From NCBI RefSeq assembly GCF_044324785.1, contig NZ_CP172127.1: 64,000 nucleotides of DNA; one strand, 5' to 3'. The position numbers were made by a program. This document shows positions 54,801 to 60,800 of this stretch, piece after piece (the first letter of the stretch is position 1; each line of letters opens with the position of its first letter). Source of the DNA: Escherichia coli. Lineage in GTDB: Bacteria; Pseudomonadota; Gammaproteobacteria; Enterobacterales; Enterobacteriaceae.

Positions 54801-57800
54801 CTTCGGTCAGCATCCCCGACGTTTGAACTGTTTTATCAGGAGTATCAATCCCTAAGATTAAAATCTGTTTTTAAATTTGAACCAAGATTTGAACAACTTT
54901 TAACAAGACTGAGCTTTAGAAAACAATCAATTCTCAGAAAACAACAATACAGGGTTAAATCGCAATTACTGGAGAGACTGGGGAATGTGTTGTTTTTCAC
55001 GTCGCTTTATAACCAGGGATGTTTAGAGGAGTTTATAAATGCACTTGTGGAAAAGGAGGACATTTATCTGAAAATGTCCCCTGGGGAGGAAAAGGTGAAA
55101 GCACACCAGAAAATGGTTAACTACATTGAAGCGTTCTGCAACAAAATGACGGAAAAATACCTGATGCCCGCAGCAAGCAGACACTACAAAAAGAAGAAAA
55201 TCGCCAGGAGCGAAAGTGGTGAAAGTTAATCCAGTCTACCGTACAGAATCAGTTGTTCCAGAATAGCCTGCTGTGTTGTTTTCCGCTCTCTGGTCAGTCT
55301 GTCCAGAGCGCTTTTTGCGGATGGCGATATCTTTACGTTGATTTGTACCCGTTTATCTTTTTTTCCATCGATAAACTGTTTTCTGAATGCATTGTGCATC
55401 TTGTCGAAAAATCTTTCTTTTGCAGCGAATCCTAGGTGAAATTCTTTTGGCGTCAGTAAACAGGGTGTGTCTGTGGGGAATAACATTTTTAGTAAAACTA
55501 CAATGGCAATATATCTTTCGTTATCATTTACAGGATTAAACCAGGAAAGATATGTGGGTGAGATACGTGCATCAATATATTCCCATGCCCATTTCAGTTG
55601 TTCGGTATTCTTTTTAAGCCATTTGGCTTCGTTTCTCTTTTCGAGTCCCAGCCAGTTTTGATGCATTATTGAGATAATCCGATCTGCTTCCCCATAAAGG
55701 ATTAACGCATTAATCCATTTCCCTATAACATTCAGTCGTGTTTCATGACTTGAAGGAATAATTGTCATGGGGTTATCCTTCATAACGATCACCCCCTTCA
55801 AGGCAGAGTTGAACTCAGATTCATTATTAAGTTTAAGTTTTTCGGGAACTGTATGAGACATAATTAACCAGAACCAGAATGCTGCAATTTCATTTTTTCT
55901 GATCCATTCAGGTATGTGATTATCTGCCAGATTATTATCATTCAATAAATGCTCAGTTGTTTTATTTTTCCAGTCATATCTATTCACGTTATAACCGCCT
56001 TTATATTGTTTCATCTGATTACGCCTCAATCGTTTTCTTTTCTGGTGATTTTCACCATCACATGTCAGTTGTATATGCAAGGGGATCAATAAAAATATCA
56101 CCCTGCAAGCACTTCAAAGCTGATTATGGGGATATTCTAGAACTATTCACAAAACTATTCCAGACATATCAAGAACTATTTCTTGACCTATTCATAATAA
56201 AATAAAACATGCTATCAACTACGGCTCATATTCTCCTTGGGGGTGTCGTTGTACTGTTCGACTGTTCTTGTGGTCAGATTAACAATCTGAAGAGTAAAAG
56301 CGACAGTAATCTGTCTGTTATAGTGGCGATAAAAACACTGAATGCGCATCCTGTATGTGAAATCCTGTCATGTAGAGCAGTAAGCAATGACAGACATGCA
56401 TGTTATATGTGAAGGGGGCCGGGAGACGACATAATCAGTATGGCTGTCATTCTGGTTGTAAAACGCGATCACTTTCCGGGGGTAAAAGATGATATGGAGG
56501 TTGACAAACGGTTTGCTTCGGATTGTCTTTTCTGGGGCCTGAAATACGAGGGCAGAAAAATAATTCCAGAGTAAATCTGCTCTGTTTTTAGGACAGAAAA
56601 CTCCATGCTGGCTGTAAAAGTGAAAAATTAACACCCAGTATGTATGGAAGTCTGAAGATGTTGAGAATGTCGGTATGATACTATATACACATATTTTACT
56701 AAGTATTTTTACTAAGCATTTCAGTAAGTGTTATACACGTATTTTCTACTAAGTGTTTTACCAGACATACACGTGTTTTCATAAACAGCCCTATAAGTGT
56801 TTTCATTAAGCATTGCTGTACACATTGCTTTGTCTGAAACACATCCAGTTTAGTAAATCTTTACGTTAGCTAAAATCAGTTTAAAGCTGCTGTAAAACCT
56901 TTCTGTTTAAGCAATCAATCTGCTATTCGATTTTACTGATGTTGCGTTTAACCTTTTCTGAGATTTCGAGTTTCGACGTTAGCATGAGAAAAGTATCTTT
57001 ACGCTAAATCAACCCGAACTTTCCTGAAGTAATCTGACGTTTTTTTCGATGTGCTTACGACGATTCTGTTAAACGACTTTCTGGATGTTTTGATAACAAT
57101 CAGATTGAGGCATTAACGATTCCTGACGTTTTCTTTTCCGTGTAAGGTCATTCTTTTTGTCATGAGGTTTCTTCTTGCATTGCGAAAGTGTGATGAACGG
57201 TTTTGGTGTTTTTGATTCAGATAAGGTTTACGTTATCGATGGTTAATCGTTTTTATGGTGCGTAGTGAAACGTAACTTTTTCAGGATGAGAAAATCGATT
57301 CTGATGTTGGTGATTTTTGTTCTTGTGGCGGGGTTTATCTGTAAACAGGTTTTAAACGTGTCATTCACATCCGTGATTGAGTTGTGTGATTAAGCTGTAG
57401 GTTTTGGGGTTGTTGTTGATTTGCATTACCAGGAAGCGTTCTGGTTGCGTTTCTGGTGTTTTGTTCGAATGTTCTGTGGATCCTTTTCCCTTCTGACTTT
57501 TCTCGTTGTCCATGTCGTTTTTAAATCCATTCGCTGTTCTTGAGTGTTTTTACCCTGCGTGTAGAATTATCTTTTCGTTCCGGGATGGTTTGTTCCGTTT
57601 CAATCACTCTTAATCAGAGAGTTGTAGCATTGCTCAATGCCGGATGCCGTAAAGTTTTACCGCGGTGATTAATGATGTGAAGTCAATCCAAATCAACGGA
57701 GATCTCTCATCATGAATCAACCAATACACAATGCTTACTGGTTATCCCGTTTTGAAAGTATTCTCAACAGTGCCCTGGCGCAGCACCGTGCCGTCTCGTT

Positions 57801-60800
57801 AATCCGGGTGGATTTACGTTTCCCTGAGTATATGCCTGCCACCATCATGGATACCGATTTAGATTCAGCGGTGATTTCTCGTTTTTTTGCATCCCTGAAA
57901 GCAAAAATTCAGGCTTACCAGCGACATAAACGACGTGCCAACAAGCGTGTGCGTGCAACCACTCTGCGTTATTTCTGGTGTCGGGAGTTTGGCAAGGAAA
58001 AAGGCAGGAAACATTATCACGTGATATTACTGCTCAACAAAGATACCTGGTGCTCGCCAGGGGATTTCACCGTTCCTTCTTCGCTGGCGACACTGATCAA
58101 GCTGGCATGGTGTAGTGCTCTGCATCTTGAGCCCTGGCAGGGTAATGGACTGGTTCATTTTTCCAGGCGGACGCCTTTCCGTAAACCGACATCATCTGAT
58201 GCTCGCCCTTCTTCCGATGATACGCCTTTGTCGGGTGGATGTTCTGAAACCAGGAAGGCTTCAGACAAAAAGCCGGGTGAAGCCGCTGTTCTCTGGATCA
58301 AGCGTGGTGATGTGGAAGCGCTGCAGAAAGCCCGGAACAGAGCCAGTTATCTCGTGAAATATGAGACGAAGCAGCATGACGGTTCCGGGCAACGTAATTA
58401 TGGTTGCAGTCGTGGGCCGGGGCGTCTGCTGGATGGCAGGTGAGCCCTGTAAAACGACATCCGGTGCCTGAGCTTATGCTACAGGACGTTGGCTGACGCC
58501 CTTAGCTCGTTTTCTGAAAAAGTCGTCCTGAAGTCATGCAACGGTATTTTTCTCTGCTTTCGCTCCTGGAAACACTCCGTCGGTAAAACCTTACTGTCCT
58601 GCTTAATGATGTGAACCGAAGTCAACGGAGAGCATTCATTCTGAACCTGCATCCGGTGTTCTGTCCCTTGTCGGTTACCTGATCTTCCCGTTCTGCCGCG
58701 GTTTTTCACTTATTCCATCAACCCCATACGCAAGCCATAACACGTCAGCGCATCCACGGGCAGGACGCGTTGTGGGCTGCGTATAACGGAACATATCTTA
58801 TGAATGCTATCCCTTATTTCGACTATAGCATGGCGCCCTTCTGGCCATCTTATCAGAACAAAATCATCGGCGTTCTCAACCGTGTGTTGCGCGAGCAGTC
58901 CTGCTCCCGAATACGGCGGATCCTGCTTCGTCTGCCGGGGGAACATGGCAACATCTTCAGCGACAGAAAAACCTGGTTCGGTATGGCCTTTATCGAAACC
59001 GTCAGTGCGCTGATGAATGCAACCCCCGGACGCGACCTCTGCTGGCTCCTGACACGTCATCCTGAAAAACCGGAATACCACGTGGTGCTGTGCGTCAGAC
59101 AGGAATATTTCGACGGCCCTGAGCTGGACCGGTTGATTCTGGATGCCTGGAGCAACGTACTGGGCTTCGCGTCACCGGGTGAAGCAGCACCGTACCAGAA
59201 ACAGATAACCCGGGATGTGGTGCTGGACAGTTGTTCACCGGACTGCGAAGAGAGACTCAAAGAGCTGATATGGGCGTTCAGTGATTTCGCCCGCGATCGT
59301 CGTGGTGTGCGCGATCCGGAAGCCCGTTACCTCGCCGGTAATCCCTGGTATCCCGTAGCAGGCCAGCTCTGAAAGCTCAGCTCAGCAGATTCACCCGCAT
59401 TTGCCCAACATTCATAAATCTCACAGAGGACATTCTGACCATGTTGACCTCAATGACAGGTCACGACAGCGTATTGCTGCGTGCCGACGATCCCCTGATC
59501 GACATGAACTACATCACCAGCTTCACTGGTATGACCGACAAATGGTTTTACAAGCTGATCAGTGAAGGCCATTTCCCTAAACCCATCAAACTGGGGCGCA
59601 GCAGCCGCTGGTACAAAAGTGAAGTGGAGCAGTGGATGCAGCAACGAATCGAGGCATCACGAGGGGCAGCAGCATGAAACGTGTTGTAATGCCGGTACGC
59701 TGGCAATGTGCAAAATACCAGCGTTGGTATTGTGGAAATCAGCCCTGTCCCTGGTGCTGGCGACCTGCTGCCCCCGTCTGTCATTCCTCGTTCTTCGCTG
59801 TAACAGGCATCGTACCGGTCTCGGCGTGCTTTCCTGCGTACCGACACCGGTTCAGCAACATTCAAGGGGATCAAATCGTGCAAATAACCGAAACCGTACT
59901 TTCAGAGCCGGTGGAAATCCGGCGTTTTATTCAGCAGGCGGTGGATCACTGGCCGCGTCTGCTGGCCGTCCACTTCACACTCCATTCGGCAGAAGGAAAC
60001 ATCAACGGACAACAGATTCATGCATTCTGTACTTCCTTTTACCGACAGGTGCACGAGCGTATTACTGAACGTAATCACACGGCCAGTCCAGCACCACCGG
60101 TGGTATTACGCTGGTTGCGGGAACAACATGGAGGAGCAACAATGCGATGCCTGTTGCTGCTCAGCCAGACGAGCATTTGCCATCCACGGGTCAGTGCCAC
60201 GGTTGATGAAGAATGTTCGCAACGGGTGGATTTATTGCAACAGACATGGCGGGTGATAAGTGCTGACGGACAATGCCGGGTGGAAAGGTGTTTTCAGGCT
60301 GCCCGGGGTGATACATCCGGCCAGTATATTGCGTTAAAAACAGTTGCATTGTCTCTGGGGTTACCGGTTGTGACCGGTATTACCCATCGCCCGGTACAGC
60401 GCTGTACATTGATTACAGCTCAGTGAACAGCGCTGTTGTGCAGTCAACGAGGTTTTCTGTCTTTTCGTCGGTCATTCAGCATCATTAAACGGGTCTCTGC
60501 CTCTTTCTGTTCCTGTGGTGTCACTTCCCCGCACGGCTGACCGTTCAGGTTGTAACGGGCGCCACCTGCTATTAACGCACGGTAATAGCGCGGAGACTGC
60601 ACATAAGACGCCACTGCTGCATGTAATGTACCAGCGCCAAACGCCAGTTCTCGGATGGCGATATCCTGTATCAGGTCGTCAGGTATCCCCACTTTAAGTG
60701 GTTTTGTTTTTTTCCCGGTTGAATGACTCAGGCCAGAGTTCCACAAGACGAATAATGCGCTTACGGTTTTTGCTCTGGCGTTTTGTCATGTCGCCACGGT

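What the first reader, a model, noticed from the sequence alone, without database searches (positions are those of the whole stretch)
57712..60426. Three tandem Gp2-like paralogs with alpA embedded
Three co-oriented genes show weak mutual similarity and similar upstream leaders, with an AlpA regulator gene between the second and third. Multiple diverged copies at one site suggest repeated local duplication or accretion from successive elements.
Basis: partly seen in the sequence, partly recalled or inferred. Interest (0 to 1): 0.35.

Follow-up and report, generated by a model that had tools for sequence, protein, structure and literature searches.

The report
Conserved Rep-like gene triad around alpA
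Three neighbouring genes in an E. coli genomic island are very old, highly diverged relatives of a DNA-nicking replication protein, only the first still looking active; with the small regulator AlpA they form a common, uncharacterised island module rather than a recent local duplication.

Summary
The observation mostly holds. Window 57712-60426 (E. coli ST38 chromosome, CP4-57-like island) carries four co-oriented genes. They are G1 (243 aa), G2 (190 aa), an AlpA-family regulator (78 aa) and G3 (182 aa).

Direct pairwise similarity is at noise level (BLASTP E 0.027, 0.063, 32). Homology appears only through profiles and intermediate sequences.
- G1 is a clear YagK/YfjJ ("inovirus Gp2") protein with an HUH-nuclease fold and intact HUH and Tyr motifs.
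- G2 is annotated "hypothetical". It links to that family at hhalign 97.6% probability and through a 36%-identical relative that passes the Pfam threshold.
- G3 (Pfam PF27752, UCP030791) links more weakly, through Klebsiella homologues.
- G2 and G3 lack the catalytic residues.

Only the G1 and G2 leaders are alike, over about 65 nt that include a palindrome.

Each gene belongs to its own ancient subfamily. Sets of two or three subfamilies plus AlpA and a zinc-ribbon gene recur in other E. coli islands, Klebsiella plasmids and a metagenomic element. Only the first slot behaves like a swappable cassette.

This is a widespread module, partly matched in 2857 of 5426 complete E. coli genomes, and its function is untested. 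My proposal of a replication or mobilisation core is inference. Interest is low to moderate.

The parts
57647..57716 (+). G1 leader element: palindrome CCGTAAAGTTTTACCG, then TGATTAATGATGTGAA...TCAACGGAGA (Shine-Dalgarno) and the ATG
   Evidence: Direct repeats D3/D4 with 58583-58645. Alignment score 36 against shuffles 18.4 +/- 2.1, 0 of 500 reaching it. Palindrome scan. The element is identical in other islands carrying this G1 type (L012, L003, L002).
57712..58443 (+). G1: YagK/YfjJ ('inovirus Gp2') family protein, 243 aa, HUH Rep-like fold with intact motifs (RVDLRFP; H101-Y-H103; Y213-LVK-YETK). Carries a disordered insertion (residues 153-189 below pLDDT 50) that is absent from the non-E. 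coli homologues in the alignment.
58565..58799 (+). G2 leader, conserved across E. coli alleles. It contains the palindrome CGGTAAAACCTTACTG (58581-58596) and the copy of the G1 leader element (58583-58645), in which the ATG is replaced by CTG. A further 155 nt precede the G2 start.
   Evidence: In a five-allele alignment, most 40-nt blocks of the leader are about as conserved as the coding region, and similarity to other genomes starts at ~58561.
58800..59372 (+). G2: 190 aa, annotated 'hypothetical protein'. It is a divergent, probably non-catalytic YagK/YfjJ homologue (E92-Y-H94 in place of HUH; no conserved Tyr motif). Complete relatives are almost all E. coli, plus two distant metagenomic ones.
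   Evidence: PF11726 only E 0.26. hhalign against the G1-family profile gives 97.6%, E 2.6e-12. P0317 (36% identity, E 4e-15) hits PF11726 at 1.4e-10. The ST131 allele matches K-12 YfjJ at 9e-6. The N-terminus is shared with P0317 and P0321, which supports the start at 58800.
59441..59677 (+). alpA: AlpA/Vis-family MerR-like HTH regulator or excisionase, 78 aa
   Evidence: PF05930 E 2e-10. PHROG excisionase/transcriptional regulator families. 92% identical to the ST131 copy and 70% to the Klebsiella plasmid and L009 copies. Only 25% identical to K-12 AlpA.
59675..59877 (+). Unannotated small Cys-rich (mini zinc-ribbon-like) ORF whose ATG overlaps the alpA stop (ATGA). Here it is fused in frame to G3 and carries C15Y.
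   Evidence: Translations of four alleles share MKRVVMPVRWQCAKC.RWYCG..PCPWCW. The ORF stops after 30-51 aa in L011 and L016, and is open into G3 in the window. It sits where the Zn_ribbon_11 genes lie in Klebsiella L005, next to the G3-type gene. No Pfam hit of its own.
59878..60426 (+). G3: UCP030791 (PF27752) protein, 182 aa, GTG start. It is a very divergent, non-catalytic relative of the YagK/YfjJ fold (M89-R-C91 at the HUH position).
   Evidence: PF27752 in precomputed domains. No hit in the local Pfam or NCBIfam copies. 3 of 54 family members hit PF11726, best 2.5e-4. Linked via KpB/KaB. hhalign colinear but only 10-15% probability. AF2 model is poor (pLDDT 53.8), with alpha-beta-alpha-beta-beta-alpha-beta-alpha order as in G1.
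60396..60436 (.). Inverted repeat (17-nt arms, 7-nt gap) between the convergent ends of G3 and the ProQ/FinO pseudogene. Probably a bidirectional terminator.
   Evidence: Inverted repeat I6; gene ends.
60444..60952 (-). ProQ/FinO-family gene (frameshifted here), a recurrent convergent neighbour of G3
   Evidence: PF04352 E 4.9e-17. Annotated as a frameshifted pseudogene. Found at the same position in L002, L016 and L008.

Best explanation
The locus is the conserved core module of a CP4-57/P4-like E. coli genomic island, not a product of recent tandem duplication. It encodes three anciently diverged members of one HUH Rep-like superfamily (YagK/YfjJ), an AlpA/Vis-family regulator, and a vestigial zinc-ribbon ORF coupled to alpA.

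Shown here:
- G1 has the HUH-endonuclease fold and keeps the family's invariant metal-binding (H-x-H) and Tyr/Lys motifs.
- G2 and G3 have lost those residues throughout their subfamilies.
- The subfamilies co-occur with AlpA in distant elements.
- The first slot is exchangeable between two HUH-intact Rep types.
- G1 and G2 share a ~65-nt leader element with a palindrome.

Inferred, not shown:
- G1 is a site-specific single-strand nickase that starts rolling-circle-type replication, or ssDNA processing for transfer, of the excised island.
- AlpA switches on excision and/or module expression.
- G2 and G3 are non-catalytic DNA-binding or modulating partners. A possible analogue is filamentous-phage gpX, which modulates gpII (my own knowledge).
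- The shared palindromic leader element is a common operator that co-regulates G1 and G2. It also provides homology for swapping the first cassette.
For: Family and fold of G1.

G2 homology.

G3 homology.

Loss of catalytic residues in G2 and G3: the sequences compared with the invariant columns.

Conserved synteny:
- ST131 island: Rep type, G2, alpA, G3.
- STE15: the same, plus ProQ/FinO.
- Klebsiella plasmid: G1-type, AlpA, two Zn-ribbon genes, G3-type, DUF2913.
- Metagenomic L009: AlpA, Rep type, Zn-ribbon gene, G2-type, G3-type, DUF2913.
- K-12 CP4-57: intA, alpA, yfjI, yfjJ, with YfjJ of the G1 type.

Prevalence: part of the module is found in 2857 of 5426 complete E. coli genomes, with a median of 2 places per genome.

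Leader element.

Literature: intY, alpA, a Gp2-like protein and RadC are described as the likely core functions of a widespread class of transducible Pseudomonas islands (bioRxiv 10.1101/2024.08.29.610337). The island here has the matching companions (GTPase, DUF932, antirestriction, JAB/RadC-like, CbtA/YeeU).
Against: - No experiment exists for any member. The literature search found only annotation-level mentions.
- No origin or nick site was identified.
- The island copy here looks decayed: ProQ/FinO is frameshifted, an IS3 is adjacent, and no integrase or tRNA was found in window 40000-64000. The module may no longer function in this strain.
- The G3 link rests on a two-step chain, and its AF2 model is low-confidence.
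- An HUH fold with intact motifs does not prove nicking. The HUH fold is also used simply as an origin-binding domain.
- The leader element shows no convincing sigma-70 promoter or stable RNA structure. Its regulatory role is therefore a guess.
Confidence: 0.6

Rival explanations
1. One reading: the three genes arose by repeated local tandem duplication at this site, or were left behind one after another by successive integrating elements.
For: All three share ancestry. G1 and G2 share a ~65-nt leader, as a duplicated cassette would. The first slot is exchanged between islands, with breakpoints at the leader. G1 also occurs alone next to other cargo (L012).
Against: Protein identity between the neighbours is only about 20-26% over short stretches. 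Each has a much closer counterpart in Klebsiella plasmids or metagenomic contigs, where the subfamilies are already linked to AlpA. The G2-alpA-G3 order is fixed across E. coli islands that differ by 8-15% at the protein level. No integrase, att repeat or element boundary lies between the genes.
Confidence: 0.12
2. The proteins are transcription or DNA-binding regulators that merely reuse the HUH fold, with no nicking and no replication. Together with AlpA they form a regulatory cluster that controls excision or cargo (virulence or defence) genes.
For: Two of the three lack catalytic residues. They flank a regulator and share a palindromic operator-like site. The module lies next to variable cargo such as TIR, restriction, pap and two-partner secretion genes. 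HUH domains double as origin-binding domains in parvovirus NS1 and AAV Rep, which are the top structural matches.
Against: The slot-1 gene keeps HUH plus Tyr in both alternative types and across genera. That argues for selection on catalysis.
Confidence: 0.2
3. G3 (UCP030791), and possibly G2, are unrelated to G1. The resemblance is convergent or due to chance, and the cluster is simply a set of unrelated small island genes.
For: Direct comparisons are not significant. hhalign G3 against the G1 family gives 10-15% probability, and G2 against G3 gives 0.2%. Pfam keeps PF27752 as a separate family. The G3 model matches only generic ferredoxin-like folds.
Against: For G2 this is excluded (97.6% hhalign; P0317 above the Pfam threshold). 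For G3, the homologue KpB scores 21 bits (8e-8) against the G1-family HMM, 3e-7 against KpA, and has PF11726 as its best Pfam hit at 0.002. 3 of 54 family members hit PF11726. The alignments are colinear, placing RVDLRFP/FTL, W.RE and the HUH strand in register. Secondary-structure order is identical.
Confidence: 0.08

Closest known systems
E. coli K-12 YfjJ / YagK (Pfam PF11726 YagK_YfjJ_C, formerly 'Inovirus_Gp2') in cryptic prophages CP4-57 and CP4-6
   Same: G1 is a full-length member (125 bits). It is 30% identical to YfjJ with the same conserved motifs, and sits in the same kind of island next to an AlpA-family gene.
   Different: CP4-57 has alpA, yfjI (DUF3987) and a single yfjJ. Here there is no DUF3987 gene, and two extra degenerate paralogs (G2, G3) surround alpA. 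The window's AlpA is only 25% identical to K-12 AlpA. G1 carries a disordered insertion missing from the non-E. coli homologues in the alignment. YfjJ and YagK are themselves uncharacterised.
HUH endonucleases / rolling-circle Rep proteins (parvovirus NS1 and AAV Rep nuclease domains, SIRV1 ORF119, Helitron, Pfam PF23343 REP_ORF2-G2P of Microviridae and Inoviridae)
   Different: There is no sequence-level match to any solved structure. G1 is a ~190-240-aa single domain without helicase or primase. No ori or nick site is known and activity is untested. G2 and G3 lack the HUH and Tyr residues.
Conserved intY-alpA-Gp2-like-RadC core of tmRNA-integrated Pseudomonas genomic islands transduced by a jumbo phage (bioRxiv 10.1101/2024.08.29.610337)
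   Same: An AlpA gene is paired with an inovirus Gp2-like gene as part of the core of a non-conjugative, non-phage island class that carries defence cargo. A RadC/JAB-like gene is also present in this island.
   Different: Different genus and integration site. That paper describes one Gp2-like gene, not a triad, and assigns it no function.
Filamentous-phage gpII/gpX pair (my own knowledge, not tested here)
   Same: An active HUH initiator works with a non-catalytic protein of the same ancestry that modulates it. This is a precedent for the role proposed for G2 and G3.
   Different: gpX is an internal translation product of gene II, not a separate diverged paralog. No inovirus structural or assembly genes are present here.

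Membership tests
YagK/YfjJ family (Pfam PF11726) | G1 scores above the Pfam gathering threshold (25.8 bits) | tested here: met
   125.4 bits, E 2.9e-36, profile positions 2-170 of 170.
YagK/YfjJ family (Pfam PF11726) | G2 scores above the Pfam gathering threshold | tested here: not met
   11.5-11.7 bits, E 0.26-0.29. Homology is nevertheless supported by hhalign at 97.6% and by relative P0317 at 41.8 bits. G2 is best filed as a divergent sister subfamily.
YagK/YfjJ family (Pfam PF11726) | G3 scores above the Pfam gathering threshold | tested here: not met
   No hit at E <= 10. 3 of 54 close relatives reach at best E 2.5e-4. Klebsiella homologue KpB scores 18.4 bits. G3 belongs to PF27752 (UCP030791) by precomputed assignment.
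HUH endonuclease superfamily | Ferredoxin-like HUH nuclease fold | tested here: met
HUH endonuclease superfamily | HUH metal-binding motif (His-hydrophobic-His) | tested here: met
   Met for G1 only: H101-Y-H103 is nearly invariant in the family. Not met for G2 (E-Y-H; C-Y-H and F-Y-H in its relatives) or for G3 (M-R-C; K-M-V, R-M-M and G-M-I in its relatives).
HUH endonuclease superfamily | Catalytic Tyr on the C-terminal helix | tested here: inconclusive
   G1 has Y213, K216 and K220 nearly invariant at the end of helix 201-214. The spatial position next to the HUH motif was not measured. The G2 subfamily has F or M there, and the G3 subfamily has no conserved Tyr.
HUH endonuclease superfamily | Metal-dependent ssDNA nicking with a covalent 5'-phosphotyrosine intermediate | not testable with these tools
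   Needs biochemistry.
AlpA / Vis family (Pfam PF05930) | Score above the gathering threshold (21 bits) | tested here: met
   40.8 bits, E 2e-10. Also matches PHROG excisionase/regulator families.
AlpA / Vis family (Pfam PF05930) | Activates the integrase or excision of its element | not testable with these tools
   No integrase gene was found within the window near the module.
Recent tandem gene duplication | Copies share substantial DNA or protein identity and are each other's closest relatives | tested here: not met
   Only a ~65-nt leader is shared. Each protein's closest relatives lie in other elements.
Filamentous phage (inovirus) prophage | Presence of inovirus structural or assembly genes around the gpII-like gene | tested here: not met
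   The neighbours are island genes: GTPase, DUF932, antirestriction, CbtA/YeeU, ProQ/FinO and IS3.

The most novel reading that the evidence does not exclude
The triad is one machine. An active HUH nickase sits in an exchangeable slot 1. Two fixed pseudo-nuclease paralogs (G2, G3) sit beside it, with AlpA and a zinc-ribbon peptide. After AlpA-triggered excision, this machine drives rolling-circle replication or ssDNA hand-off of CP4-57-like islands. That would explain how these very common E. coli pathogenicity and defence islands, which lack conjugation and capsid genes, multiply and get packaged or transferred by helpers.
Probability: 0.15. Interest if true: 0.6.

Novelty: new member of a known kind. 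Interest (0 to 1): 0.27.

Why it matters
CP4-57-like islands carry virulence, toxin-antitoxin and anti-phage genes, and parts of this module are found in more than half of complete E. coli genomes. Their conserved core genes, however, have no known function.

Three points from this work give concrete targets for testing how these islands replicate or move:
- The "hypothetical" G2 and the UCP030791 protein are degenerate relatives of the neighbouring HUH Rep-like gene.
- The set travels with AlpA across genera.
- Only the first slot keeps its catalytic residues.

As a genomic observation it is nonetheless ordinary. The families are already catalogued and the arrangement is widespread.

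Tried and rejected
- Direct pairwise BLASTP and single-family HMM-to-sequence searches gave noise-level scores. 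They could not settle homology.
- NCBIfam, PHROGs and PADLOC gave nothing for G2 or G3.
- The genome-contig scan with the G3 alignment returned only 2 near-identical loci, because the derived peptide patterns were too specific.
- The apparent 41-50% identity plasmid hits for G3 (for example L007) are frameshifted copies, not true intermediates.
- The PDB sequence search with the G1 profile found no match.
- Rfam found nothing credible in 54000-62000 (one hit at E 0.13).
- RNA folding of the shared leader gave z-scores of -1.9, 0.07 and -0.6 with no common structure, so an RNA element is not supported.
- The promoter scan found fewer sites than expected by chance and none in the shared element.
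- A 15-nt resemblance of the leader to a site upstream of alpA in L009 (TTTTACC(A)GCGGTGA) is a single case and may be chance.
- The alternative-frame HMM hit inside G1 (58097-58354) is explained by independently frameshifted, truncated database variants of 206-214 aa. It is not a second gene.

Full report
WHERE THE WINDOW COMES FROM

The 4.2 kb around the finding is 100% identical to the chromosome of E. coli ST38 strain ES1 (NZ_CP133856.1). It lies in a CP4-57-like genomic island beside setC/yicL. Reading on the + strand, the island carries:
- on the minus strand, DUF4942, DUF957, CbtA/YeeU, DUF987, a JAB/RadC-like gene, an antirestriction gene, DUF932 and a GTPase;
- two hypothetical genes;
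- a 1.6-kb AT-rich gap;
- the four genes of the finding;
- a frameshifted ProQ/FinO gene, an IS3, and restriction-type genes.

No tRNA gene occurs in window 40000-64000, and no integrase is annotated near the module.

CHECKING THE OBSERVATION

The RefSeq starts, which the N-termini of homologues support, refine two of them:
- G1: 57712-58443 (243 aa).
- G2: 58800-59372 (190 aa, not the TTG at 58770).
- alpA: 59441-59677 (78 aa).
- G3: 59878-60426 (182 aa, GTG start, not 59632).

alpA is a secure PF05930 member.

Direct similarity between the three proteins is not significant. BLASTP gives E 0.027, 0.063 and 32. HMM-to-sequence scores are 0-3 bits, only slightly better than AlpA used as a negative control. 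The weak alignments are, however, colinear and place the same three motifs in register, so I tested homology with more sensitive methods.

IS EACH GENE A GP2-LIKE PROTEIN?

G1 is unambiguous.
- It scores PF11726 E 3e-36 and PF23343 (Rep ORF2/G2P) E 3e-10, and matches PHROG replication initiators.
- Its family alignment, which spans Escherichia, Klebsiella, Providencia and Brenneria sequences, has invariant or nearly invariant RVDLRxP, H101-x-H103 and Y213/K216/K220.
- The AF2 model is confident through most of the core (about 90 pLDDT).
- K-12 YfjJ is the same type, at 30% identity.

G2 is annotated "hypothetical" and has no Pfam domain in any of its 62 close relatives.
- An exhaustive phmmer search of 1.8 billion representatives found only two complete distant relatives. 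P0317 is 36% identical (E 4e-15) and P0321 is 32% identical (E 2e-8).
- P0317 passes the PF11726 threshold (41.8 bits, E 1.4e-10).
- An HMM of diverse G1-type proteins hits P0317 at 7e-12 and P0321 at 1.5e-7.
- Profile-profile comparison of the G1-type and G2-type alignments gives 97.6% probability, E 2.6e-12, over 117 columns.

G2 is therefore a divergent YagK/YfjJ homologue.

G3 belongs to a newer Pfam family, PF27752 "UCP030791", which is absent from the local Pfam copy.
- Its E. coli relatives are all at least 73% identical, so profiles built from them are shallow.
- A tblastn search of plasmids produced real intermediates: KaB from Klebsiella aerogenes (34% identity, 2e-11) and KpB from many Klebsiella IncF plasmids (6e-4 in 7.3 Gb), the latter annotated "inovirus-type Gp2 protein".
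- The G3 HMM hits KaB at 1e-18 and KpB at 1e-14.
- KpB in turn hits the diverse G1-type HMM at 8e-8, its own neighbour KpA at 3e-7 and G1 at 8.5e-5. PF11726 is its best Pfam hit, at 0.002.
- 3 of 54 E. coli G3 relatives touch PF11726, at best 2.5e-4.
- Direct hhalign of G3 against G1-type proteins is colinear but weak, at 10-15% probability.

I take G3 to be a very remote member of the same fold superfamily, with roughly 90% confidence.

CATALYTIC RESIDUES

At the positions aligned to the family's H-Y-H:
- The G2 subfamily has E/C/F-Y-H.
- The G3 subfamily has M-R-C, K-M-V, R-M-M or G-M-I.

Neither subfamily keeps a Tyr where G1 has Y213. Only the first gene therefore looks able to carry out HUH chemistry. 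This is inferred from sequence alone.

LEADERS

Window 57649-57716, which ends at the G1 ATG, and window 58583-58645 are about 75% identical. The alignment scores 36, against 18.4 +/- 2.1 for 500 shuffles, none of which reach it. The G3 leader resembles neither.

The shared element begins with a palindrome. It reads CCGTAAAGTTTTACCG upstream of G1 and CGGTAAAACCTTACTG upstream of G2, and is a perfect CGGTAAAACCTTACCG in another allele. It ends at the Shine-Dalgarno sequence and start codon, which reads CTG in the G2 copy. The real G2 start lies 155 nt further on.

The G2 leader from ~58565 is about as conserved among five E. coli alleles as the coding sequence. I found no supported promoter or RNA structure in the element.

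IS IT LOCAL DUPLICATION OR ACCRETION?

The comparative loci argue against this for G2 and G3.
- ST131 and STE15 islands carry a different 188-aa HUH-intact Rep type (PF23343 1e-5, PF11726 5e-4). It is followed by the same G2 (88% identical), alpA (92%) and G3 (85%).
- A Klebsiella plasmid carries a G1-type gene (43% identical), AlpA (70%), two Zn_ribbon_11/DUF7828 genes, a G3-type gene and DUF2913.
- Metagenomic contig L009 carries AlpA (71%), the ST131-like Rep type (57%), a Zn-ribbon gene, a G2-type gene (33%), a G3-type gene (59% to KpB) and DUF2913.

Each gene in the window is thus closer to a counterpart in a distant element than to its own neighbours, and the subfamilies are linked to AlpA wherever they were found. 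The paralogy is ancient and the set is inherited as a module.

What does vary is slot 1. Megablast matches in other E. coli genomes either stop at window ~58548 (G1 alone, as in L012, where a TIR gene follows) or start at ~58561-58565 (G2-alpA-G3 behind a different Rep type). The junction sits at the shared leader element.

Part of the module occurs in 2857 of 5426 complete E. coli genomes, with a median of two places per genome. The exact four-gene combination (at least 80% coverage) occurs in 291.

AN EXTRA, UNANNOTATED PIECE

An ATG overlapping the alpA stop codon (ATGA) opens a small Cys-rich ORF. Its first 30 residues, MKRVVMPVRWQCAKC.RWYCG..PCPWCW, are conserved in four alleles. It terminates after 30-51 codons in the ST131 and STE15 alleles. 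In the window it carries C15Y, and a shorter spacer (200 nt against 265-277 nt) leaves it in frame with G3.

Its W-C-x2-C...Y-x-G-x3-C-P-x-C pattern and its position match the zinc-ribbon genes that lie next to the G3-type gene in the Klebsiella and L009 modules. Pfam does not detect it.

HOW IT PROBABLY WORKS (INFERENCE)

In Gram-negative satellites and islands, an AlpA-family protein turns on excision. Next to it lies the replication module (established knowledge for P4, PICI and CP4-57-type elements).

I therefore propose that the slot-1 HUH protein nicks the excised island at an unidentified origin, to start rolling-circle-type replication or ssDNA processing. G2 and G3 would be non-catalytic DNA-binding or modulating partners. 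The palindromic leader element would be a shared operator. The 13-nt iteron-like array at 56694-56759, in the AT-rich gap upstream of G1, is a candidate binding region.

None of this has been tested anywhere. Papers mention these genes only as annotations.

In this strain the island looks partly decayed, with a ProQ/FinO frameshift, the C15Y change, IS3 and no nearby integrase.

VERDICT

The "Gp2-like paralogs" label is right. The "recent local duplication or accretion" reading is mostly wrong.

This is a common, catalogued but functionally unknown island module. The modest new points are:
- the family assignment of G2;
- the pattern of one active and two inactive paralogs;
- the exchangeable first slot at a shared leader;
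- the hidden zinc-ribbon ORF.

Noticed in passing
window 59675-59877: Unannotated small Cys-rich ORF whose ATG overlaps the alpA stop codon (ATGA). Its first 30 aa are conserved in other alleles. Here it carries C15Y and runs in frame into G3, giving the 250-aa 'long G3' called by some gene finders. It corresponds in position to the Zn_ribbon_11 genes of related Klebsiella and metagenomic modules.
   Followed up: partly
window 56694-56759 (within the 1.6-kb AT-rich gap 56102-57711): Degenerate 13-nt tandem array (TTTTACTAAGTAT, 5.2 copies, 66% matches), with further 24-28-nt direct repeats up to 56820. These are iteron-like and lie upstream of the Rep-like gene. There is no evidence of function.
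   Followed up: partly
window 57647-57662, 58581-58596, 56890-56905: Palindrome of the form CGGTAAAAC(C)TTACCG in the G1 and G2 leaders, with a weaker third copy in the upstream gap. It is perfect in another E. coli allele (L003 6656).
   Followed up: partly
window ~58160-58290 (G1 residues ~151-192): G1 carries a low-complexity insertion predicted to be disordered (pLDDT 31-42). It is absent from the Klebsiella, Providencia and Brenneria homologues. Several database variants are independently frameshifted around it and truncated to 206-214 aa.
   Followed up: partly
window 60444-60952 (-) and 60396-60436: Frameshifted ProQ/FinO-family gene convergent with G3, a recurrent neighbour of the module in other E. 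coli loci. A 17-nt-arm inverted repeat lies between the two gene ends.
   Followed up: partly
window 54276-55229 (+) and 55226-56101 (-): Two overlapping convergent hypothetical genes with no family match. The second has a weak C-terminal ribbon-helix-helix/RepB-like hit (E ~0.1). They lie between the GTPase gene and the AT-rich gap.
   Followed up: no
window 61296-62524 (-) and 63341-64000 (-): A complete IS3-family element lies right after the module. It is followed by gene fragments and a gene annotated as a phosphorothioated-DNA-binding restriction endonuclease, with an HNH endonuclease just beyond the window. This is defence-type cargo next to the module.
   Followed up: no
L009 1895-1909: The sequence TTTTACCAGCGGTGA upstream of alpA in the distant metagenomic element resembles the G1 leader (TTTTACCGCGGTGA at window 57655). 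It is a single case and possibly chance.
   Followed up: partly
window ~25273-44000: By coordinate conversion from the RefSeq annotation of the identical strain, the left part of the window holds ETT2-type type III secretion remnants (translocon and tip genes, eilA) and the 11-kb inverse autotransporter gene iatC.
   Followed up: no
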